A stretch of 64,000 bases of DNA from Escherichia virus TH58: the sequence record MT446423.1; one strand, written 5' to 3'. Below are positions 10,427-63,059 of this stretch, piece after piece. Both the position numbers and the translations under genes were made by a program. How positions within the stretch are numbered: position 1 is the first letter of the stretch; each line of letters starts with the position of its first letter. The notes beneath the pieces were generated by a model. It was not told the origin of the DNA. It worked only from the letters and a program-made list of their open reading frames with translations, and made no database searches.

Positions 10427-10600
10427 ATGACGAACGACCTGACCTCTGAAAATTTCGATAAAATCCGTAAAGGCAAAGCAGAAAGAATGAGACGTTTTAA
10501 AGAGTCTTATGATAAAGCTAAAGCCGAAGGAACTATTACATACAAGCCTATTCGATTTAAAAGTTCAAATGAGCCTCTGTATGGTGTACTATGTGGATAG
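10427..10600 (+). CDS. small hypothetical protein (57 aa)
   Basis: ORF below track cutoff, read by eye; GAGGTGA SD 6 nt upstream; ends at terminator. Confidence 0.3.
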   Translation: MTNDLTSENFDKIRKGKAERMRRFKESYDKAKAEGTITYKPIRFKSSNEPLYGVLCG

Positions 10601-10626
10601 GAACTCTTCGGAGTTCCTTTTTTTTT
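10600..10626 (+). terminator. rho-independent terminator
   Basis: GGAACTC-ttcg-GAGTTCC hairpin followed by nine T. Confidence 0.8.
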
Positions 10627-14670: not shown

Positions 14671-14712
14671 TAAATTTGTTATAAACTTTGAATTGTCTTG
14701 AAAGGAAATAAA

Positions 14713-15399
14713 ATGAAACTGTCTAAAGATACTATCGCTATTCTGAAAAACTTTGCCTCTATTAACTCCGGCATTCTGCTGAGTCAAGGTAAATTTATTA
14801 TGACTCGTGCAGTTAATGGCACCACTTATGCGGAAGCAAATATCTCTGATGAAATTGATTTTGACGTAGCACTTTATGATTTGAATAGCTTCTTAAGCAT
14901 TTTGAGTCTAGTGTCTGATGATGCTGAAATTTCAATGCACACCGATGGCAATATTAAAATTGCAGATACACGTTCCACGGTTTATTGGCCTGCCGCTGAC
15001 AAGAGCACCATTGTTTTTCCTAATAAGCCAATTCAATTCCCAGTGGCTTCTGTGATTACTGAAATTAAAGCTGAAGACCTTCAACAATTGCTTCGAGTTT
15101 CACGTGGACTTCAGATTGATACAATTGCTATTACAAATAAAGATGGCAAAATTGTTATCAATGGTTATAATAAAGTTGAAGATTCTGGACTAACTCGTCC
15201 TAAGTATTCTTTGACTCTTACCGATTATGATGGTTCTAACAATTTTAACTTCGTAATCAATATGGCTAATATGAAAATCCAGCCAGGTAACTATAAAGTA
15301 ATGTTGTGGGGAGCTGGTGATAAAGTTGCAGCCAAGTTTGAAAGCTCTCAAGTAAGTTATGTTATTGCGATGGAAGCTGATTCTACTCACGACTTCTAA
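14713..15399 (+). CDS. 45: sliding clamp gp45
   Basis: Start refined to MKLSKDTIAILKNF; 228 aa; matches T4 gp45 throughout. Confidence 0.92.
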   Translation: MKLSKDTIAILKNFASINSGILLSQGKFIMTRAVNGTTYAEANISDEIDFDVALYDLNSFLSILSLVSDDAEISMHTDGNIKIADTRSTVYWPAADKSTIVFPNKPIQFPVASVITEIKAEDLQQLLRVSRGLQIDTIAITNKDGKIVINGYNKVEDSGLTRPKYSLTLTDYDGSNNFNFVINMANMKIQPGNYKVMLWGAGDKVAAKFESSQVSYVIAMEADSTHDF

Positions 15400-15474: not shown

Positions 15475-16437
15475 ATGATTACTATCAATTCCAAAGAACA
15501 CATTCTAGAACAGAAATATCGTCCTTCTTCCATTGACGAATGTATTCTGCCTGCGTATGACCATGAAACATTCAAGTCTTTAGTATCTAAAGGAAAACTT
15601 CCTCATATTATTTTACACTCTCCATCTCCTGGTACAGGTAAAACAACCGTAGCAAAAGCATTATGTAACGATATCAACGCCGAAATGATGTTCGTCAACG
15701 GTTCTGATTGTAAAATTGATTTTGTACGCGGCCCGTTAACCGCATTCGCTCGTTCAGTCTCAATGGAAGGCAAGCCGAAAGTTATCGTTATCGATGAATT
15801 TGACCGTAGTGGCCTTGCTGAATCACAACGGCACCTTCGTACATTCATGGAAGAATTCTCTAGTAACTGTTCTATTATTATTACTGCTAACAACATCGAT
15901 GGAATTATTGAACCATTACGTAGTCGTTGTCGAGTTATCGAATTCGGACGTCCAACCGAAGAAGATAAAATCTCGATGATGAAGAAGATGATTCATCGTA
16001 TGGTTGAAATCTGTAAGAACGAAAATATCGAAATCGCTGATATGAAAGTTGTTGCAGCTCTGGTTAAAAAGAACTTCCCGGACTTTCGTCGTACAATTGG
16101 TCAATTAGACCGGTACTCGTCTAAAGGTGTTCTTGATGCAGGTATTTTGTCGATTGTAACCAATGATCGTGGCACGGTAGATGATGTCATAGAAGCAATG
16201 AAAAATAAAGATATCAAACAGCTTCGTGCATTAGCTCCAAAATACGCCGCAGATTATTCATGGTTCATCGATAAATTAGTTTCAGAATGTTATGACAAAG
16301 TTGCACCTGGTAAAAGTATTATTTCACTTTACGAAATTGCAGGCGAAAACAATAAGTTTCATGGATTAGCAAGTAATATTGAATTACATGTTATGTATAT
16401 GCTTCTTCAACTAACCTGCGAACTGACTTGGAAATAA
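15475..16437 (+). CDS. 44: clamp loader large subunit gp44 (AAA+)
   Basis: Walker [11 protein letters not shown], Walker [12 protein letters not shown] motif; 320 aa. Confidence 0.92.
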
Positions 16438-16438
16438 T

Positions 16439-17002
16439 ATGAACTTATTCGATGATGACGTCCGGCTTAACGAGCACCAAATTGCATGGAAGTCTAATGA
16501 CGCTGATGCGATTCAAAAATGTGCTGATATGTTTAAAGAAAAACCTGAGAATGAATTCTTTAAAATCATTAATGCTATTAATGAAAAGAAATCTATGTCA
16601 ATTGCTCAGGTCGACTACTCAAAATTTATGGTTGAGAACTCATTATCCCAGTTCCCAGAATGTATGCCAGCTGTTTACATGATGAACTTAGTCGGTTCTG
16701 AATTAAGTGATGAAGCGCACTTCAACTATATGATGGCGGCAATTCCGCGTGGTCGTCGATTCTCTAAATGGGCTAAACTAGTCGAAGACACTTCAGAGTT
16801 ACTAGTTATCAAACTGTTGATGAAACATTACACAATCAACATGAATGATGCTACCGAGTATAAGCGGCTCCTTGAAAAAAATAACAAGTTGCCAATAGTC
16901 CTTAAAGAACTGAAGGCCATGGTCACTGATGAGTTTCTCAAAGAAGTTACAAAAAATGTGAAAGAACAAAAACAATTTAAAAAAATAGCATTGGAATGGT
17001 AA
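16439..17002 (+). CDS. 62: clamp loader small subunit gp62
   Basis: 187 aa immediately after gene 44, T4 synteny and size. Confidence 0.88.
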
Positions 17003-17004
17003 AA

Positions 17005-17373
17005 ATGATTGAAATTAAATTGAAGAACCCTGAAGATTTTCTGAAAGTCAAAGAGACTTTGACCCGTATGGGCATCGCTAATAACAAGGATAAAGTCCTT
17101 TACCAGTCTTGTCATATCCTCCAAAAGCAAGGTAAGTACTATATCGTCCACTTTAAAGAAATGTTGCGTATGGATGGACGTCAGGTTGATATTGACGGTG
17201 AAGATTATCAGAGACGTGATTCGATTGCCCAGTTGCTTGAAGACTGGGGATTGATTGTTATTGAAGACTCTGCTCGTGAAGATCTATTTAGCCTGACTAA
17301 TAACTTCCGAGTTATCTCTTTTAAACAGAAAGATGTCTGGACTTTGAAAGCAAAATATACAATTGGTAATTAA
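17005..17373 (+). CDS. regA: translational repressor RegA
   Basis: Start refined to MIEIKLKNPEDFLKVKETLTRMGIANNKDKVLYQSCHILQK; 122 aa as in T4. Confidence 0.92.
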   Translation: MIEIKLKNPEDFLKVKETLTRMGIANNKDKVLYQSCHILQKQGKYYIVHFKEMLRMDGRQVDIDGEDYQRRDSIAQLLEDWGLIVIEDSAREDLFSLTNNFRVISFKQKDVWTLKAKYTIGN

Positions 17374-17377
17374 AGCA

Positions 17378-17395
17378 ATGGGACTTCGGTCCCAT
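17378..17395 (+). promoter_or_regulatory. UUCG-loop hairpin between regA and gene 43 (terminator and/or gp43 translational operator candidate)
   Basis: ATGGGAC-ttcg-GTCCCAT then TTTGGAGTATAAT; lies about 60 nt upstream of gene 43 ATG. Confidence 0.4.
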
Positions 17396-17455
17396 TTGGA
17401 GTATAATAAGTTCCATCAACAAACAAAAGACAATAACTCGTCTAAAGGAAATTAA

Positions 17456-20167
17456 ATGAAAGAATTTTACCTAACGGTTGAACAGATTGGTGATTCAATT
17501 TTTGAACGTTACATCGATTCTAATGGCTGTGAACGTACTCGTGAAGTAGAGTATAAGCCATCATTGTTTGCACATTGTCCTGAAAGTCAGGCCACGAAAT
17601 ATTTTGATATCTACGGTAAACCTTGTACTCGTAAACTGTTCGCTAACATGCGTGATGCCTCCCAATGGATTAAACGCATGGAAGATATCGGACTTGAAGC
17701 ACTTGGTATGGACGATTTCAAATTGGCGTATTTGTCTGACACTTATAACTATGAAATCAAATACGACCATACAAAAATTCGTGTGGCTAACTTCGACATC
17801 GAAGTAACATCTCCGGATGGGTTCCCTGAGCCGTCGCAAGCAAAACATCCGATTGATGCTATCACCCATTATGACTCAATTGACGACAGGTTCTACGTAT
17901 TTGATCTATTGAATTCTCCATATGGTAATGTGGAAGAATGGTCTATCGAAATTGCAGCTAAGCTTCAAGAACAAGGTGGTGATGAAGTTCCATCCGAAAT
18001 TATCGACAAAATCGTTTATATGCCGTTCGATAACGAAAAAGAATTGTTGATGGAATATCTCAACTTCTGGCAACAGAAAACTCCTGTCATTTTGACTGGA
18101 TGGAACGTTGAGTCATTTGATATTCCATATGTGTATAACCGAATCAAGAATATTTTTGGCGAATCTACTGCGAAACGTTTATCACCACATCGTAAAACTC
18201 GTGTTAAAGTTATCGAAAACATGTATGGTTCTCGTGAAATCATTACATTGTTCGGTATCTCTGTTCTTGATTACATTGACCTTTACAAAAAATTCTCTTT
18301 TACCAATCAACCGTCGTATTCTCTGGATTACATTTCAGAATTTGAATTGAACGTTGGTAAACTGAAATATGACGGCCCTATTTCTAAGCTTCGTGAAAGC
18401 AATCACCAACGATATATTTCTTATAACATTATCGACGTGTATCGTGTATTGCAAATTGATGCTAAGCGTCAGTTCATCAACTTGAGTTTGGACATGGGTT
18501 ATTATGCTAAGATACAGATTCAATCTGTGTTTAGTCCAATTAAAACATGGGATGCTATTATTTTTAATAGCCTTAAAGAGCAGAACAAGGTGATTCCACA
18601 AGGTCGTTCTCATCCGGTTCAACCTTATCCTGGCGCTTTTGTTAAGGAACCTATTCCAAATCGATACAAATATGTAATGAGTTTCGACCTTACATCTCTG
18701 TATCCAAGTATTATTCGCCAAGTGAATATTAGCCCAGAAACAATAGCAGGAACGTTTAAAGTAGCTCCATTGCATGATTATATTAACGCTGTTGCTGAAC
18801 GTCCTTCTGATGTGTACAGTTGTTCTCCTAACGGCATGATGTATTATAAAGACCGTGATGGTGTAGTTCCAACTGAAATCACTAAAGTCTTTAATCAACG
18901 TAAAGAACATAAAGGTTACATGCTTGCAGCTCAACGTAATGGTGAAATAATTAAAGAGGCATTGCATAATCCTAATCTTTCTGTCGACGAACCATTAGAT
19001 GTTGATTATCGTTTCGACTTCAGTGATGAGATTAAAGAAAAGATTAAAAAGTTGTCTGCTAAATCTCTTAATGAAATGTTGTTTAGAGCTCAACGTACTG
19101 AAGTTGCAGGTATGACTGCCCAAATTAACCGTAAATTGCTTATCAACTCACTTTATGGTGCACTTGGCAACGTTTGGTTCCGTTATTATGATTTGCGTAA
19201 TGCTACCGCAATCACAACATTTGGTCAAATGGCTTTACAGTGGATTGAACGTAAAGTTAATGAATATCTGAATGAAGTTTGTGGTACAGAAGGTGAAGCT
19301 TTCGTTCTATATGGTGATACAGACTCTATTTACGTATCTGCTGATAAAATTATCGATAAGGTTGGTGAATCTAAATTCCGTGATACCAACCATTGGGTAG
19401 ACTTCTTAGATAAGTTTGCACGTGAACGTATGGAACCAGCTATTGATAGAGGTTTCCGTGAAATGTGTGAATACATGAACAATAAACAACACTTAATGTT
19501 CATGGACCGAGAAGCTATCGCTGGTCCTCCGCTCGGTTCTAAAGGTATTGGTGGATTCTGGACTGGTAAGAAACGTTATGCATTAAACGTGTGGGACATG
19601 GAAGGTACTCGTTACGCTGAGCCTAAACTCAAAATAATGGGTCTAGAGACTCAGAAATCTTCGACTCCTAAAGCAGTACAGAAAGCTCTTAAAGAATGTA
19701 TTCGTCGTATGCTTCAAGAAGGTGAAGAATCATTACAAGAATATTTTAAAGAGTTTGAAAAAGAATTCCGTCAATTGAATTATATTAGCATCGCGTCGGT
19801 ATCTTCTGCGAATAACATTGCTAAATATGAAGTAGGTGGATTCCCGGGTCCTAAATGCCCGTTCCATATTCGTGGAATTCTGACGTATAACCGGGCTATC
19901 AAAGGTAATATCGATGCACCGCAAGTTGTAGAAGGTGAAAAAGTATATGTTCTGCCTTTACGTGAAGGAAACCCATTCGGTGATAAATGTATCGCATGGC
20001 CTTCTGGTACTGAAATCACAGATTTAATTAAAGACGACGTACTTCATTGGATGGACTACACTGTTCTCCTTGAGAAGACATTTATTAAACCACTTGAAGG
20101 ATTCACATCAGCAGCGAAACTCGATTACGAGAAGAAAGCATCTCTGTTCGATATGTTCGATTTTTGA
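17456..20167 (+). CDS. 43: DNA polymerase gp43 (family B)
   Basis: 903 aa; exonuclease motif FDIEV, polymerase motifs DLTSLYPSII and YGDTDSIYV; sequence matches RB69 gp43 as remembered. Confidence 0.97.
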   Translation: MKEFYLTVEQIGDSIFERYIDSNGCERTREVEYKPSLFAHCPESQATKYFDIYGKPCTRKLFANMRDASQWIKRMEDIGLEALGMDDFKLAYLSDTYNYEIKYDHTKIRVANFDIEVTSPDGFPEPSQAKHPIDAITHYDSIDDRFYVFDLLNSPYGNVEEWSIEIAAKLQEQGGDEVPSEIIDKIVYMPFDNEKELLMEYLNFWQQKTPVILTGWNVESFDIPYVYNRIKNIFGESTAKRLSPHRKTRVKVIENMYGSREIITLFGISVLDYIDLYKKFSFTNQPSYSLDYISEFELNVGKLKYDGPISKLRESNHQRYISYNIIDVYRVLQIDAKRQFINLSLDMGYYAKIQIQSVFSPIKTWDAIIFNSLKEQNKVIPQGRSHPVQPYPGAFVKEPIPNRYKYVMSFDLTSLYPSIIRQVNISPETIAGTFKVAPLHDYINAVAERPSDVYSCSPNGMMYYKDRDGVVPTEITKVFNQRKEHKGYMLAAQRNGEIIKEALHNPNLSVDEPLDVDYRFDFSDEIKEKIKKLSAKSLNEMLFRAQRTEVAGMTAQINRKLLINSLYGALGNVWFRYYDLRNATAITTFGQMALQWIERKVNEYLNEVCGTEGEAFVLYGDTDSIYVSADKIIDKVGESKFRDTNHWVDFLDKFARERMEPAIDRGFREMCEYMNNKQHLMFMDREAIAGPPLGSKGIGGFWTGKKRYALNVWDMEGTRYAEPKLKIMGLETQKSSTPKAVQKALKECIRRMLQEGEESLQEYFKEFEKEFRQLNYISIASVSSANNIAKYEVGGFPGPKCPFHIRGILTYNRAIKGNIDAPQVVEGEKVYVLPLREGNPFGDKCIAWPSGTEITDLIKDDVLHWMDYTVLLEKTFIKPLEGFTSAAKLDYEKKASLFDMFDF

Positions 20168-20207: not shown

Positions 20208-20843
20208 ATGAAAACTACTCCTATTACTATCGCTATTGACGCAATCATAAAACAAGCTTCTTCTTTGGCCGCTATGGCCAAAGTAATTAGTCAAAACCCT
20301 GCTCGTTATAATGCTATTCTAGAAACTCTTCGACGCCCAGGACTTAGTAATTATGAAAGTCGTGTAATTATTACAGGTGTTGGTAAGAACGCTAATATCG
20401 CAACTAAAGCTTCTGAGACTTTTGCTTCATTAGGTATTCCTAGCATGTATTTGAACACCGGGCATTATTCTCACGGCGATGCAGGATTCATTGCGCCTAA
20501 TGATGTGTTGATTCATATTAGTCGTTCTGGTAAAACTGAAGAAATGATAGGCGTGGCTAAGCATCTTAAAATGATTCGTCCGAACGTCAAACAGATTCTG
20601 TTGCATTGTAACCCAGACATTCCACAAGAAAATGAAGCCCTTTTTGATTACTCTTTCTGTACAGGCATCGCAGTAGAGGTTGATGAGAATTCTCTGGCTC
20701 CGACTATGTCCACTACATTGTTGTTAGCGCTTATCGATACGTTTGCTATCAACCTTTCGTCTGAACGTGGATTTACCTCTAATGACTTCCTTAAGTTCCA
20801 CCCTGGTGGTGCACTAGGTGCCATGTTACGAGGCGAACAATGA
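20208..20843 (+). CDS. SIS-domain sugar-phosphate isomerase, arabinose-5-phosphate isomerase-like (no CBS domains)
   Basis: GVGKNANIATKASETFASLGIPSMYL..HGDAGFIAPNDVLIHISRSGKTEE matches the KdsD/KpsF/GutQ SIS signature; not found at this locus in T4. Confidence 0.8.
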   Translation: MKTTPITIAIDAIIKQASSLAAMAKVISQNPARYNAILETLRRPGLSNYESRVIITGVGKNANIATKASETFASLGIPSMYLNTGHYSHGDAGFIAPNDVLIHISRSGKTEEMIGVAKHLKMIRPNVKQILLHCNPDIPQENEALFDYSFCTGIAVEVDENSLAPTMSTTLLLALIDTFAINLSSERGFTSNDFLKFHPGGALGAMLRGEQ

Positions 20844-21024: not shown

Positions 21025-22710
21025 ATGAAAAAAGCTGTTATTCTTGGTGCTGGACTGGCAACTCGTTTGTATCCAATAACGCATCATATTCCTAAGGTGC
21101 TTGTTAACTATAAACAAGACACTATTCTGAGCAATTTGTATACAATTTATTCTGACCTTGGCGCAGATGAAATTATTGTAGTAGTTCATTCAAAATTTGC
21201 TGAAACCGTTCGAGCTTATTGTGAGCAAGAAGGGTTCAATGTGACTATTCGTACAGTTGATGAAGCATATGGTTCTGCTTATGCTCTTGCTAAATTGCAC
21301 AAAGATTTAGACGGTCATAATGTAATTGTTAACTGGTGTGATATTATTCCCGATTTTGGTTCATGGTCTTGGAATGTTAACGCAATCTATGTTAAGGGTG
21401 ACGAATGTCGATATAATTTCGACGGTGAAAATATCACTAACGTAGGTTCAACAGGTGGTAATGTTGTAGGAATTTATCAGTTCAAAGACTGGGAATTCTA
21501 TATGGGTTCTACTGATGAGGAAATTCATGAATACTGCAAAGGACGTGATTTCGTAGAATTCCTTTACGGCAGCGCATTCAATAAATCAGAGCTTATGAAT
21601 CTAATTGATTTAGGTGATATGCCTAAACTTGAAAAGGCTCATGAAGTTCGTGAACTTAATCGTAGTTTTAATGCGGTTGAAATTGGTGAAGAAACTGTAA
21701 CTAAATTCGCATTAACCGAACAGGGCCGATCTCTTCAGAAAGATGAGATTTCATGGTATCTTAAAGTGAAATCAGATTCAGTTCCTCAGTTAGTTTCTGT
21801 TAATGAAAATAACTTTGAAATGGAACGCATTAAAGGTAAGCCGGCATTTGAATATATTAAATCCAAATCGAGTCTTGCTCGTCCACAAATTGTTGATGCA
21901 ATTTTAGATGCACTGAAATTCAGCACAGACACTTATTTTGTAAGTCCTGAAACTGTTCGTCGTGATTTCACTAAAGAATTCTATACTAAAGTCATCGATC
22001 GTTGTGAAAGTATTCAACCATTGATTGATTCATTTGGTAAAATCACACATGTGAACTACACTAAGATTGGACGTCTGAAGCCAATGTTGAAACAAGCTTT
22101 AGAACACCTTATTCGTTATCATAACCGTTCTCAGGGACAGTACTCTGTTATTCATGGTGACCCGAACTTCAGTAATACTATGATTACTGATAATGGTGAA
22201 GTAAAGTTTATCGACCCTCGTGGATATTTTGGTGAAACCAAGATTTACGGGCCAAAATTGTATGACGAAGCTAAAGTGCTTTACGCTGTTTCAGGTTATG
22301 ATGAATTCAACGCCAATCCGACCTGGGGACAGTTTACTATTGATGAAATAACCTGTAATGTGACTATTAACATCAATCCATTAGTTTACAAATATGGAAA
22401 GATGAGTTCGTTTAACGTGTATCATCATTTGGCAGTGGCAATTATCTGGATTGCATTAGGTGGTTATTTCAAGAATAATCCACTTAAAGCGGTAGCCGCA
22501 TATTATAAAGGTATGGAACTTCTGACTAAGCAATTACGTAACATGGGCCGTGTACTTCAGGACGGCACTATTAGTTATGATGTAGCAGAACCTGTAACGG
22601 CTACTCTGATTACAAAAAATCCTGGTAAATGGGTACTAACTGATAAAGAAACTGGTGTTTCTTATCGTCCAATCGGTGGCGATAACACTCATCAATGGGA
22701 ACGAATCTAA
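21025..22710 (+). CDS. bifunctional sugar-1-phosphate nucleotidyltransferase / sugar kinase (561 aa)
   Basis: N-terminal GAGLATRL nucleotidyltransferase signature; C-terminal choline-kinase/APH-like kinase fold with HGDPNFSN catalytic loop and FIDPRGYF. Confidence 0.75.
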   Translation: MKKAVILGAGLATRLYPITHHIPKVLVNYKQDTILSNLYTIYSDLGADEIIVVVHSKFAETVRAYCEQEGFNVTIRTVDEAYGSAYALAKLHKDLDGHNVIVNWCDIIPDFGSWSWNVNAIYVKGDECRYNFDGENITNVGSTGGNVVGIYQFKDWEFYMGSTDEEIHEYCKGRDFVEFLYGSAFNKSELMNLIDLGDMPKLEKAHEVRELNRSFNAVEIGEETVTKFALTEQGRSLQKDEISWYLKVKSDSVPQLVSVNENNFEMERIKGKPAFEYIKSKSSLARPQIVDAILDALKFSTDTYFVSPETVRRDFTKEFYTKVIDRCESIQPLIDSFGKITHVNYTKIGRLKPMLKQALEHLIRYHNRSQGQYSVIHGDPNFSNTMITDNGEVKFIDPRGYFGETKIYGPKLYDEAKVLYAVSGYDEFNANPTWGQFTIDEITCNVTININPLVYKYGKMSSFNVYHHLAVAIIWIALGGYFKNNPLKAVAAYYKGMELLTKQLRNMGRVLQDGTISYDVAEPVTATLITKNPGKWVLTDKETGVSYRPIGGDNTHQWERI

Positions 22711-29813: not shown

Positions 29814-29819
29814 TAAAAA

Positions 29820-29838
29820 GGAGACTTCGGTCTCCTTT
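29820..29838 (+). terminator. putative terminator hairpin after gene 41
   Basis: GGAGAC-ttcg-GTCTCC followed by TTTCGGGGTTT. Confidence 0.4.
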
Positions 29839-29872: not shown

Positions 29873-29901
29873 AGACTTACACCAACCAAGAGGAGAACAA
29901 A

Positions 29902-35549: not shown

Positions 35550-35557
35550 ATAATTTA

Positions 35558-35583
35558 AGGAATCCTTCGGGATTCCTTTTTTT
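35558..35583 (+). terminator. rho-independent terminator
   Basis: AGGAATCC-ttcg-GGATTCCT followed by TTTTTT. Confidence 0.85.
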
Positions 35584-44020: not shown

Positions 44021-44446
44021 ATGGCTTTTAAAGGTTTTGAAGTTGGTAAGAAATATCGTATTATCAAAGGACAGGAAGATAATTTCTTGAGACTTCTTAA
44101 TACGACTGGTAAACGTCTTAATACTAATCTGCATACTACTTTATTGTCCAAAGATTTTATTGTGGAAAAGATGATTGGTTACGGTGTTTCTGTGATTGCT
44201 GTAGAAGCCGTAGGCGATTATGGCCGAACTATTCATAGTATGCAAGGTGATATTCTGCTTTATGGTGCAGAATTTAAATTCTTTGAAGAAGTTCCGGAAC
44301 CAGATACAGCTGTCGATTTCAAAAAAGGCTCTGTAGAATTTGTTGATGGTTCGGTGATCGTATCAGGTGATGTGGTCATTACAGTTAAAAGTGAACAAGG
44401 GCGTTTGGCTGCAATTGATGCACTTCAGAAAATTAAATTTAAATAA
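44021..44446 (+). CDS. hypothetical protein (141 aa)
   Basis: Track ORF. Confidence 0.5.
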   Translation: MAFKGFEVGKKYRIIKGQEDNFLRLLNTTGKRLNTNLHTTLLSKDFIVEKMIGYGVSVIAVEAVGDYGRTIHSMQGDILLYGAEFKFFEEVPEPDTAVDFKKGSVEFVDGSVIVSGDVVITVKSEQGRLAAIDALQKIKFK

Positions 44447-44468
44447 GGGCTTCGGCCCTTTTTGCTTT
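44445..44468 (+). terminator. rho-independent terminator
   Basis: GGGC-ttcg-GCCC followed by TTTTTGCTTT. Confidence 0.7.
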
Positions 44469-50971: not shown

Positions 50972-50994
50972 GGGGACTTCGGTCCCCTTTTTTT
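50972..50994 (+). terminator. rho-independent terminator
   Basis: GGGGAC-ttcg-GTCCCC followed by seven T. Confidence 0.85.
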
Positions 50995-53295: not shown

Positions 53296-53435
53296 TGATT
53301 AAGAAAATCTTAGCAGGAGCCTTCGGGCTCTTGTTGTTGCTTATGGTTCTGTACTATGGTGTGATGTTTGGACTAATCCAAGTAGTGCTTTTCATTTCAG
53401 ATGTTATAATGACTATTCGTTCATTAATATGGTGA
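53295..53435 (+). CDS. small membrane protein (46 aa)
   Basis: ORF read by eye; TAATG overlap with previous small ORF; hydrophobic. Confidence 0.35.
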   Translation: MIKKILAGAFGLLLLLMVLYYGVMFGLIQVVLFISDVIMTIRSLIW

Positions 53436-54765: not shown

Positions 54766-54841
54766 GTGCCCTAGCCTTAGGATTTCTCGGTGCAATAGCT
54801 GCACTAGTGATTTGGCTGTATTGGTTAGACAAACATGATTA

Positions 54842-54861
54842 GGGAGCTTCGGCTCCCTTTT
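54842..54861 (+). terminator. rho-independent terminator
   Basis: GGGAGC-ttcg-GCTCCC followed by TTTTGTGCATTTTTTT. Confidence 0.8.
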
Positions 54862-63035: not shown

Positions 63036-63059
63036 AAAAATGGGAGACCGAAGTCTCCC
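63036..63059 (-). terminator. rho-independent terminator after gene 35
   Basis: On - strand GGGAGAC-uucg-GUCUCCC followed by AUUUUUG. Confidence 0.7.

What the first reader, a model, noticed from the sequence alone, without database searches (positions are those of the whole stretch)
17378..17455. UUCG-loop hairpin in the regA-43 intergenic region: candidate translational operator
Directly after regA an 18-nt hairpin (AUGGGAC-uucg-GUCCCAU) precedes the gene 43 SD. T4-family DNA polymerases repress their own translation by binding a hairpin-containing operator here; the element may act as partial terminator, operator or both.
Basis: partly seen in the sequence, partly recalled or inferred. Interest (0 to 1): 0.4.

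Follow-up and report, generated by a model that had tools for sequence, protein, structure and literature searches.

The report
Terminator-type hairpin, not the polymerase operator
The UUCG hairpin after regA is real and conserved, but it is an ordinary T4-type intergenic hairpin at the end of the upstream operon; the known DNA-polymerase translational operator is a second hairpin 31 bases downstream, so nothing here is new.

Summary
The window is an RB69-like (Mosigvirus) T4-family phage. The hairpin AUGGGAC-UUCG-GUCCCAU is present at 17378-17395 and extends to 8 bp (17377-17396). It starts 3 nt after the regA stop codon. It is stable (-10.3 kcal/mol, z -3.8). A hairpin is conserved at this position, with compensatory stem changes, in 49 of 51 distinct related sequences.

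It is not the gp43 operator. The operator characterised in RB69 is the 16-nt hairpin AGAC-AAUAACUC-GUCU at 17428-17443 plus the ribosome-binding site, and this part of the window is identical to RB69. A conserved GGAGTATAAT lies between the two hairpins at 17398-17407. It aligns with the -10 element of T4 middle promoter P43, whose mapped start lies just 5' of the operator hairpin. P43 transcripts therefore lack the UUCG hairpin.

The two hairpins evolve in opposite ways:
- **Hairpin 1:** the stem covaries and the loop swaps among ultra-stable tetraloops (UUCG, UACG, UCCG, GAAA).
- **Hairpin 2:** the loop sequence is conserved.

Hairpin 1 belongs to the known T4 class of intercistronic C(UUCG)G hairpins, and seven comparable intergenic ones lie on the same strand of this window. 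It most likely acts as a leaky terminator and 3'-end protector. Its U-tract is poor, and T4 RNA-seq shows no drop in read density across the site. All elements are already known.

The parts
17371..17373 (+). regA stop codon (TAA)
   Evidence: ORF 16996/17005-17373; Pfam PF01818 Translat_reg, E 2.3e-59.
17377..17396 (+). Proposed leaky terminator and 3'-end-protecting hairpin of the 45-44-62-regA transcripts.
   Evidence: Folds at -10.3/-11.7 kcal/mol, z -3.8. All 8 pairs covary across 29 distinct homologous hairpins. RNAalifold recovers it. Approximate d'Aubenton-Carafa terminator score is -15, because the U-tract is poor.
17379..17388 (+). TGGGACTTCG: a possible degenerate MotA box (ACTT core) lying in the hairpin loop and 5' arm DNA, 13 bp upstream of the -10. 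Inference only.
   Evidence: MotA box consensus wwwTGCTTtA sits 12+/-1 bp from the -10, and an ACTT core is known in T4 P46. The match here is 5/10 at a 13-bp spacer. ACTTCG-N13-TATAAT occurs once in the window.
17398..17407 (+). GGAG + TATAAT: the -10 element of the gene 43 middle promoter (homologue of T4 P43). TATAAT is 17402-17407.
   Evidence: GGAGTATAAT is the best-conserved block of the intergenic alignment. T4 P43 start site 29933 lies 40 nt before the T4 ATG at 29893, a few nt 3' of the aligned TATAAT.
17413..17415 (+). Predicted transcription start of the gene 43 promoter (6-8 nt after the -10). Inferred, not mapped.
   Evidence: Inferred by homology with the T4 P43 start.
17428..17443 (+). 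gp43 translational operator hairpin: AGAC-AAUAACUC-GUCU (4 bp stem, 8-nt loop, 16 nt).
   Evidence: Identical to RB69 AY303349. Fits the 16-base RB69 operator hairpin with the -UAAC- loop described in PMC3014915. The loop is conserved as AAUNACUC in 42 of 51 distinct upstream regions while the stems covary.
17445..17449 (+). Shine-Dalgarno sequence of gene 43 (AAGGA within AAAGGAAA); part of the operator.
   Evidence: Read directly from the sequence. The review states that the operator overlaps the ribosome-binding site.
17456..20167 (+). Gene 43, family B DNA polymerase (903 aa)
   Evidence: ORF; Pfam PF03104 and PF00136. The regA-43 query (605 bases, 16996-17600) is 97% identical to Mosigvirus phages.

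Best explanation
The regA-43 intergenic region holds three separate, already known elements in a row.

(1) The UUCG hairpin (17377-17396) is a T4-type intercistronic C(UUCG)G hairpin. It marks the 3' end of the 45-44-62-regA transcription unit. On RNA read from upstream promoters it most likely acts as a weak, leaky intrinsic terminator and as a barrier to 3' exonucleases. This function is inferred.

(2) GGAGTATAAT (17398-17407) is the -10 element of the MotA-dependent middle promoter of gene 43. The homology to T4 P43 is shown here. Promoter activity in this phage is inferred.

(3) The hairpin AGAC-AAUAACUC-GUCU (17428-17443), together with the Shine-Dalgarno sequence, is the gp43 autogenous translational operator. 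Its sequence identity to the experimentally characterised RB69 operator is shown here. gp43 not engaged on DNA binds it and blocks ribosome access, as established for T4 and RB69.

The UUCG hairpin is not part of the operator.
For: - The window's intergenic region equals RB69 except for one extra C.
- The review PMC3014915 describes the RB69 operator as a 16-base hairpin-loop sharing its -UAAC- loop with the T4 operator, which overlaps the RBS. Only 17428-17443 fits that description.
- T4 P43 start 29933 and T4 ATG 29893 place the start 3' of TATAAT and 5' of the operator hairpin. P43 mRNA therefore lacks the UUCG hairpin.
- Among 51 distinct upstream regions, hairpin 1 loops are UUCG 36, UACG 4, UCCG 1 and GAAA 3. 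Two phages with the same stem (L052, L053) differ only in the loop, UUAC against GAAA. This points to selection for stability, not for a protein-read loop.
- Hairpin 2 shows the opposite pattern. Its loop is AAUNACUC in 42 of 51 regions, its stems covary, and its 3' end stays 9-23 nt from the ATG.
- The gap between the two hairpins varies from 6 to 39 nt.
- Regions without a recognisable operator hairpin (L056, L057) still have hairpin 1 followed by a U-run.
- Seven other intergenic C(UUCG)G hairpins lie on the + strand of this window. Five start within 7 nt of, or overlap, the end of an ORF of at least 60 aa; the other two (10599, 54841) lie further from the nearest such ORF. Most are followed by a T-run and then a promoter-like sequence.
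- In distant relatives hairpin 1 carries a good U-tract, with approximate terminator scores of +11 to +13.
Against: - The U-tract in this phage is poor (UUUGG). My approximate d'Aubenton-Carafa score is -15, against +11 to +46 for five other UUCG hairpins in the same window. T4 scores +3, which is borderline.
- The terminator scan did not call the hairpin on the + strand.
- In T4 RNA-seq (Patterson-West 2018, Table S1) read density does not fall across the site. In wild type, regA has 32.4 reads/nt and gene 43 has 45.4. In the motA amber infection the values are 1.65 and 1.89 (my division of the counts). Efficient termination is therefore unlikely. Different mRNA stabilities could confound this comparison.
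- No 3'-end mapping for this phage was available.
- The primary papers on T4 and RB69 transcript mapping were not held in the library, so a documented terminator at this site rests on my memory only.
Confidence: 0.8

Rival explanations
1. One reading: the UUCG hairpin is, or is part of, the gp43 translational operator.
For: It lies in the regA-43 intergenic region, where the operator is known to be. It is also present on read-through transcripts from upstream promoters.
Against: - The described RB69 operator hairpin is 16 nt with a -UAAC- loop, which is a different hairpin.
- The T4 P43 start lies downstream of the UUCG hairpin.
- The hairpin's 3' end is 48 nt from the SD (17445) and 59 nt from the ATG, and its distance to the operator hairpin varies from 6 to 39 nt among relatives.
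- The loop is replaced by GAAA, UACG or UCCG in relatives.
- The same motif recurs at seven other intergenic sites in the window that have nothing to do with gene 43.
- A commentary in the library states that no proteins bind the CUUCGG tetraloop (PMC4371310).
Confidence: 0.04
2. Dual use at the DNA level. This does not exclude the best explanation. In T4- and RB69-type phages the loop and 5' arm of the hairpin ((G/A)CTTCG) also serve as the degenerate MotA box of promoter P43, so the UUCG loop is kept partly for promoter activation.
For: - P43 is listed as a MotA-dependent middle promoter. T4 gene 43 RNA falls about 26-fold in a motA amber infection (log2 -4.73).
- The -30 region of the promoter lies inside the hairpin. 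The window has TGGGACTTCG 13 bp from TATAAT, with an ACTT core as in T4 P46.
- Where the hairpin sits 18-21 nt from TATAAT, a separate and better MotA-like box appears at 12 bp: TTTTACTTTA at 9/10, TTCTGCTATC at 7/10.
- Canonical MotA-box/-10 pairs are five-fold enriched in the window (26 against 5.2 +/- 2.5), so this phage uses such promoters.
Against: - The match is only 5/10.
- The spacing is 13 bp in the window, 14 bp in a Klebsiella phage and 15 bp in T4, against the canonical 12+/-1.
- Relatives with GAAA or UACG loops keep the hairpin next to TATAAT with no CTT core (L021, L053).
- regA RNA is equally MotA-dependent (log2 -4.46), so much of the gene 43 effect could come from upstream promoters.
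Confidence: 0.25
3. A processing module. On read-through transcripts the RegB endoribonuclease cuts the conserved GGAG (17398-17401) just 3' of the hairpin. The hairpin is then left as the exonuclease-resistant 3' end of the regA-proximal RNA without transcription termination.
For: - GGAGUAUAAUA matches the strong RegB site consensus GG*AGRAYARAA at 9 of 11 positions (consensus from PMC3014915; my count).
- GG(A/G)G 5' of TATAAT is kept in most genera although a -10 element does not require it.
- This model fits the absence of a density drop in T4 RNA-seq.
Against: - The review says most middle transcripts with an intergenic GGAG are resistant to RegB.
- GGAG is replaced by AGAG, GUAG or GGGG in some relatives.
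- No cleavage data for this site were found.
- RB69 regB is reported as divergent.
Confidence: 0.12
4. The palindrome works on the opposite strand, as a terminator of antisense transcripts entering the replication cluster.
For: The simple terminator scan called it only on the - strand (hairpin followed by GCTTTAATTA). A-run/hairpin/T-run symmetry is common among the homologues.
Against: All long ORFs from 14.0 to 22.7 kb are on the + strand. Strong UUCG hairpins in the window are almost all on the + strand. The symmetry of a perfect palindrome makes a - strand call automatic.
Confidence: 0.05

Closest known systems
gp43 autogenous translational operator of phages T4 and RB69 (Karam and Gold laboratories; summarised in Uzan & Miller 2010, PMC3014915)
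   Same: Window 17417-17458 is base-for-base the RB69 sequence. It carries the 16-nt hairpin AGAC-AAUAACUC-GUCU followed by the SD and AUG. The loop is the same as in the T4 operator AGCCU-AAUAACUC-GGGCU.
   Different: Nothing differs for hairpin 2.
C(UUCG)G intercistronic hairpins of T4 mRNA (Tuerk et al. 1988 PNAS 85:1364; cited in PMC4371310 and PMC8948821)
   Same: The hairpin has a C(UUCG)G loop with a C:G closing pair and sits in an intergenic position on the transcribed strand. It is unusually stable. T4 has the orthologous AAGGGGC-UUCG-GCCCCUU at the same place.
   Different: Only the stem sequence differs (GGGAC/GUCCC against GGGGC/GCCCC). The U-tract is shorter than in T4.
T4 middle promoter P43 (start 29933; Hinton 2010, PMC2988021, Table 1)
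   Same: GGAGTATAAT is identical in T4 and the window, and it occupies the same position relative to both hairpins.
   Different: The spacing from the (G/A)CTTCG loop to TATAAT is 13 bp here and 15 bp in T4. The core is ACTT instead of GCTT.
Rho-independent (intrinsic) terminators
   Same: A GC-rich stem-loop at the end of a transcription unit, flanked by an A-run and a T-run. Homologues in distant T4-like phages have full U-tracts.
   Different: Only 3 consecutive U follow here, two of which can pair in the stem. The approximate score is below the terminator threshold.

Membership tests
gp43 translational operator (T4/RB69) | Hairpin with the conserved 8-nt loop AAUAACUC (-UAAC- core) | tested here: not met
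   Hairpin 1 has a UUCG tetraloop. The feature is met instead by 17428-17443.
gp43 translational operator (T4/RB69) | Contiguous with, and overlapping, the gene 43 ribosome-binding site | tested here: not met
   The 3' end of hairpin 1 is 48 nt from the SD and 59 nt from the ATG. The 3' end of hairpin 2 is 1 nt from the SD and 12 nt from the ATG.
gp43 translational operator (T4/RB69) | Present on the gene 43 mRNA made from its own promoter | tested here: not met
   By homology, the T4 P43 start 29933 lies 3' of the UUCG hairpin. The start was not mapped in this phage.
gp43 translational operator (T4/RB69) | Specific binding by gp43 and repression of translation | not testable with these tools
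   This needs a gel shift or a reporter assay.
C(UUCG)G intercistronic hairpin of T4-type phages | UUCG tetraloop closed by a C:G pair on a Watson-Crick stem | tested here: met
   GGGAC-UUCG-GUCCC.
C(UUCG)G intercistronic hairpin of T4-type phages | Intercistronic position on the mRNA strand, recurring through the genome | tested here: met
   It starts 3 nt after the regA stop codon. Seven other intergenic examples lie on the + strand, and there are 15 UUCG hairpins against 4.0 +/- 2.0 expected.
Intrinsic terminator | GC-rich hairpin immediately followed by a U-rich tract (about 5 or more U in 8) | tested here: not met
   The tail is UUUGGAGU, with 4 U in 8 when the paired U are counted. Approximate d-score -15. 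Not called on the + strand.
Intrinsic terminator | RNA 3' ends and a drop in transcription at the site | tested here: inconclusive
   Only indirect T4 data were available: no drop in reads/nt between regA and gene 43, with or without MotA. No data exist for this phage.
MotA-dependent middle promoter (P43) | Good sigma70 -10 element TAnnnT | tested here: met
   TATAAT at 17402-17407, found in 41 of 51 distinct relatives.
MotA-dependent middle promoter (P43) | MotA box (a/t)(a/t)(a/t)TGCTTtA 12+/-1 bp upstream of the -10 | tested here: inconclusive
   TGGGACTTCG at 13 bp matches 5/10 with an ACTT core.
MotA-dependent middle promoter (P43) | Transcription start mapped and dependent on MotA/AsiA | not testable with these tools
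   Known for T4 only.

The most novel reading that the evidence does not exclude
The conserved hairpin-GGAG-TATAAT block is a compact multi-use module. The UUCG loop DNA supplies the (degenerate) MotA-box core of the gene 43 promoter. On read-through RNA the same hairpin, together with a RegB-type GGAG cut 2-4 nt downstream, creates a protected 3' end for the regA-proximal transcripts. One 30-nt stretch would then be read as a terminator or stabiliser in RNA and as an activator site in DNA.
Probability: 0.15. Interest if true: 0.3.

Novelty: already known. Interest (0 to 1): 0.08.

Why it matters
It matters little beyond correct annotation. The case shows that the most conspicuous hairpin in the regA-43 spacer is not the regulatory one. 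The gp43 operator is the weak 4-bp hairpin (-3.2 kcal/mol) next to the ribosome-binding site. Anyone designing gp43 binding or expression constructs from this phage should use 17417-17458, not the UUCG hairpin. The comparative set assembled here (51 distinct upstream regions) also gives a clean contrast. A hairpin selected for stability keeps its structure while its loop is swapped. A hairpin selected for protein recognition keeps its loop sequence.

Tried and rejected
- An Rfam search of 17000-17800 at a permissive E-value found only a chance mir-203 hit. Neither hairpin belongs to a curated RNA family.
- The sigma70 promoter scan did not list the gene 43 promoter, because it has no -35 element. 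The terminator scan called the hairpin only on the - strand.
- The primary papers were not held in the library: Petrov & Karam 2002 (PMC137073), Miller et al. 2003 (PMC150520), Tuerk et al. 1988 (PMC279771) and Yeh, Hsu & Karam 1998 (PMC107123). The operator definition therefore rests on the Uzan & Miller review. My recollection that Hsu & Karam 1990 mapped termination and processing sites in this cluster is memory only.
- The T4 RefSeq record carries no promoter, terminator or operator features here.
- Literature searches for the loop strings AGCAACCU and AAUAACUC returned only unrelated siRNA and miRNA papers.
- The small third hairpin in the MFE fold (UGGAG...UUCCA, 17397-17416) depends on the single extra C that distinguishes this phage from RB69. 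It is not conserved, so I rejected it as a feature.
- I considered a late promoter: TATAATAA has one mismatch to TATAAATA. I rejected it because the conserved block is TATAAT and aligns with the mapped middle promoter.

Full report
**What the window is.**
The ORFs around the finding are gene 45 (14698-15399), 44 (15475-16437), 62 (16439-17002), regA (to 17373) and a 903-aa gene 43 (17456-20167), all on the + strand. Pfam confirms regA (PF01818, E 2e-59) and a family B DNA polymerase. Megablast of the regA-43 junction hits 159 phage records. The best is 97.2% identical, and all top hits are RB69-like Escherichia or Shigella phages. RB69 itself (AY303349, genus Mosigvirus) matches 17300-17520 at 98.2%. 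In the intergenic region the window differs from RB69 by one extra C (agttCCatc against agttCatc).

**The observation.**
The sequence AUGGGAC-UUCG-GUCCCAU is at 17378-17395. One more A-U pair extends it to 17377-17396. It starts 3 nt after the regA stop codon. It folds at -10.3 kcal/mol (z -3.79, 0 of 200 shuffles as stable) and dominates the fold of the whole spacer.

**What else is in the spacer.**
Folding the spacer also gives a weak hairpin, AGAC-AAUAACUC-GUCU, at 17428-17443 (-3.2 kcal/mol, z -5.7 for the 22-mer). It lies directly in front of AAAGGAAAUUAA-AUG. T4 has the same layout:
- stop codon;
- AAGGGGC-UUCG-GCCCCUU;
- AUUUGGAGUAUAAU;
- AGCCU-AAUAACUC-GGGCU;
- SD and AUG.

**Which hairpin is the operator.**
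The Uzan & Miller review (PMC3014915) states that gp43 binds an operator made of a hairpin upstream of the start codon plus sequence overlapping the ribosome-binding site. It gives the T4 hairpin-loop as 18 bases and the RB69 one as 16 bases. It says the loop nucleotides are shared, with -UAAC- as the core that was also selected in the first SELEX experiment. AGCCU-AAUAACUC-GGGCU is 18 nt and AGAC-AAUAACUC-GUCU is 16 nt. The UUCG hairpins fit neither the sizes nor the loop. The operator in this window is therefore 17428-17443 plus the SD, and it is identical to the experimentally studied RB69 sequence.

**The promoter between the hairpins.**
Hinton's review (PMC2988021, Table 1) lists a T4 middle promoter P43 with start site 29933. 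The T4 gene 43 ATG is at 29893 on the complementary strand. The start is therefore 40 nt upstream of the ATG. That position is a few nt 3' of the TATAAT and at most 4 nt 5' of the operator hairpin (sequence). GGAGTATAAT is identical in T4 and the window (17398-17407), and it is the most conserved block in the alignment of 21 diverse upstream regions. Two consequences follow:
- mRNA made from P43 contains the operator hairpin but not the UUCG hairpin;
- the hairpin DNA occupies roughly -35 to -17 of that promoter.

**Comparative evidence.**
I collected 10 annotated loci from seven genera and 53 IMG/VR loci found with an alignment of gp43 N-termini. These gave 51 distinct 140-nt upstream regions.

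Hairpin 1:
- 49 of the 51 regions have a GC-rich hairpin upstream of the -10 element.
- The loops are UUCG 36, UACG 4, UCCG 1, GAAA 3 and a few others.
- On 29 distinct hairpin sequences, all 8 stem pairs show changes on both sides. There are 46 such cells against 12.5 +/- 2.5 in shuffles, and pairing collapses when the 3' arm is slid by one column.
- The rows were picked as the best hairpin per sequence, so pairing is partly by construction. RNAalifold on the unselected MAFFT alignment nevertheless predicts exactly two helices, hairpin 1 and the operator hairpin.
- L052 and L053 share the stem GGAGCC/GGCUCC but have UUAC and GAAA loops.

Hairpin 2:
- 44 of the 51 regions have it.
- The loop is AAUCACUC in 19, AAUAACUC in 14 and AAUUACUC in 9.
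- The stems covary: 29 cells changed on both sides, against 8.1 +/- 2.4 in shuffles.
- Its 3' end is 9-23 nt from the ATG.

The gap between the two hairpins ranges from 6 to 39 nt. Regions with no recognisable operator (L056, L057) still have hairpin 1 followed by a U-run. In Dhakavirus KIT01 and Pectobacterium phage PM2 an extra ORF of about 71 aa follows regA, and the hairpin comes after that ORF.

The pattern is clear. Hairpin 1 is selected for stability at the end of the upstream transcription unit. Hairpin 2 is selected for a specific loop sequence next to the ribosome-binding site.

**The hairpin as a member of a genomic class.**
The window holds 15 UUCG hairpins with stems of at least 5 bp, against 4.0 +/- 2.0 expected. 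Besides 17377, seven strong ones on the + strand lie in intergenic sequence: 10599, 29817, 35557, 44445, 50972, 53311 and 54841. Five of them start within 7 nt of, or overlap, the end of an ORF of at least 60 aa. Hairpins 10599 and 54841 lie further from the nearest such ORF. One more lies on the - strand at 63042. Most are followed by a T-run and then a promoter-like sequence:
- TTTGCTTTA-N12-TAAAAT and TTTGCTTTA-N12-TAGAAT at 10599 and 44445;
- GTTTAC-type -35 boxes at 29817, 35557 and 54841.

This is the situation described for T4 by Tuerk et al. 1988, as summarised in two papers held in the library. CUUCGG hairpins are abundant in T4 intergenic regions and extraordinarily stable. The commentary PMC4371310 adds that no proteins bind this tetraloop.

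**Is it a terminator?**
In my approximate re-implementation of the d'Aubenton-Carafa score, the scores are as follows.

| Hairpin | Approximate score | Note |
|---|---|---|
| Window 17377 | -15 | tail UUUGGAGU |
| T4 homologue | +3 | borderline |
| Five other UUCG hairpins in the window | +11 to +46 | |
| Homologues L021, L041 and L057 | +11 to +13 | better U-tracts |

T4 RNA-seq counts (Patterson-West et al. 2018, Table S1) give these read densities by my division.

| Infection | regA (reads/nt) | gene 43 (reads/nt) |
|---|---|---|
| Wild type | 32.4 | 45.4 |
| motA amber | 1.65 | 1.89 |

There is no visible drop across the hairpin even when MotA-dependent promoters are off. The hairpin is therefore at most a leaky terminator in T4- and RB69-type phages. 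Protection of the upstream RNA's 3' end against exonucleases is the more probable main role. This step is inferred, not shown.

**Possible second use in DNA.**
The MotA box consensus (a/t)(a/t)(a/t)TGCTTtA lies 12+/-1 bp from the -10 element. Deviations are tolerated, and T4 P46 has an ACTT core. The window uses such promoters: GCTTYA-N11-13-TANNNT occurs 26 times, against 5.2 +/- 2.5 expected. In front of gene 43 the only candidate is TGGGACTTCG (17379-17388), 13 bp from TATAAT, with 5/10 matches. The corresponding spacing is 15 bp in T4 and 14 bp in a Klebsiella phage. Where the hairpin lies 18-21 nt from TATAAT, a separate and better box appears at 12 bp (TTTTACTTTA, TTCTGCTATC). Relatives with GAAA or UACG loops have no CTT core at all. 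I rate the dual-use idea at about 0.25. It does not affect the main verdict.

**A further untested idea.**
GGAGUAUAAUA (17398-17408) matches the strong RegB cleavage consensus GG*AGRAYARAA at 9 of 11 positions (consensus). A cut there would leave the hairpin 2-4 nt from a new 3' end. The same review notes that most middle transcripts with an intergenic GGAG are resistant to RegB. Some relatives have AGAG, GUAG or GGGG instead. I rate this at about 0.12.

**Verdict.**
The UUCG hairpin is the RB69-lineage orthologue of a T4 intercistronic C(UUCG)G hairpin. The gp43 operator and the gene 43 promoter are the two elements downstream of it. All three are already known kinds, and the operator sequence is identical to the studied RB69 one. 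Interest is low.

Noticed in passing
L043 788-900 (Serratia phage PS2, KJ025957/NC_024121); L044 has a similar sequence: The hairpin in front of gene 43 reads GUCC-AGCAACCU-GGAC. Its loop has the -CAAC- core instead of -UAAC-. Uzan & Miller ask whether any natural phage carries the SELEX 'major variant' -CAAC- loop. From memory, AGCAACCU is exactly that variant from Tuerk & Gold 1990. This may be a natural example. Seen; phage identified.
   Followed up: partly
window 10599-10618, 29817-29838, 35557-35578, 44445-44460, 50972-50987, 53311-53336, 54841-54858 (+); 63042-63059 (-): A family of intergenic C(UUCG)G hairpins. Most are followed by a T-run and then a promoter-like sequence. At 10599 and 44445 the terminator's T-run runs straight into a consensus MotA box TTTGCTTTA.
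   Followed up: partly
window 20208-20843 and 21025-22710 (+): Directly downstream of gene 43 lie a SIS-domain protein (PF01380) and a 561-aa protein with an N-terminal nucleotidyl-transferase domain (PF00483). T4 has no such genes at this position. From memory, RB69 modifies its DNA with arabinose, and genes like these were proposed for the sugar pathway. Not checked here.
   Followed up: no
L025 791-903 (IMGVR_UViG_2974737508, 175 kb, X20-like): The TATAAT directly abuts the operator-type hairpin (ggggTATAAT-GUCC-UAAUAACUC-GGAC). A transcript from that -10 element would start inside the hairpin, which raises the question of whether autogenous control works there.
   Followed up: no
L008 701-916 (Dhakavirus KIT01) and L009 684-902 (Pectobacterium phage PM2); also L013-L016, L019-L021, L023, L024, L027, L029: An extra small ORF (about 71 aa, hypothetical) is inserted between regA and the hairpin. 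The module of hairpin, -10 element and operator stays intact on the gene 43 side.
   Followed up: no
window 17398-17408: GG(A/G)G immediately 5' of TATAAT is conserved across most genera, although a -10 element does not need it. GGAGUAUAAUA resembles the RegB cleavage consensus.
   Followed up: partly
window 17413-17414: One extra C relative to RB69 (agttCCatc) is the only difference in the spacer. It creates a small non-conserved third hairpin in the MFE fold.
   Followed up: yes
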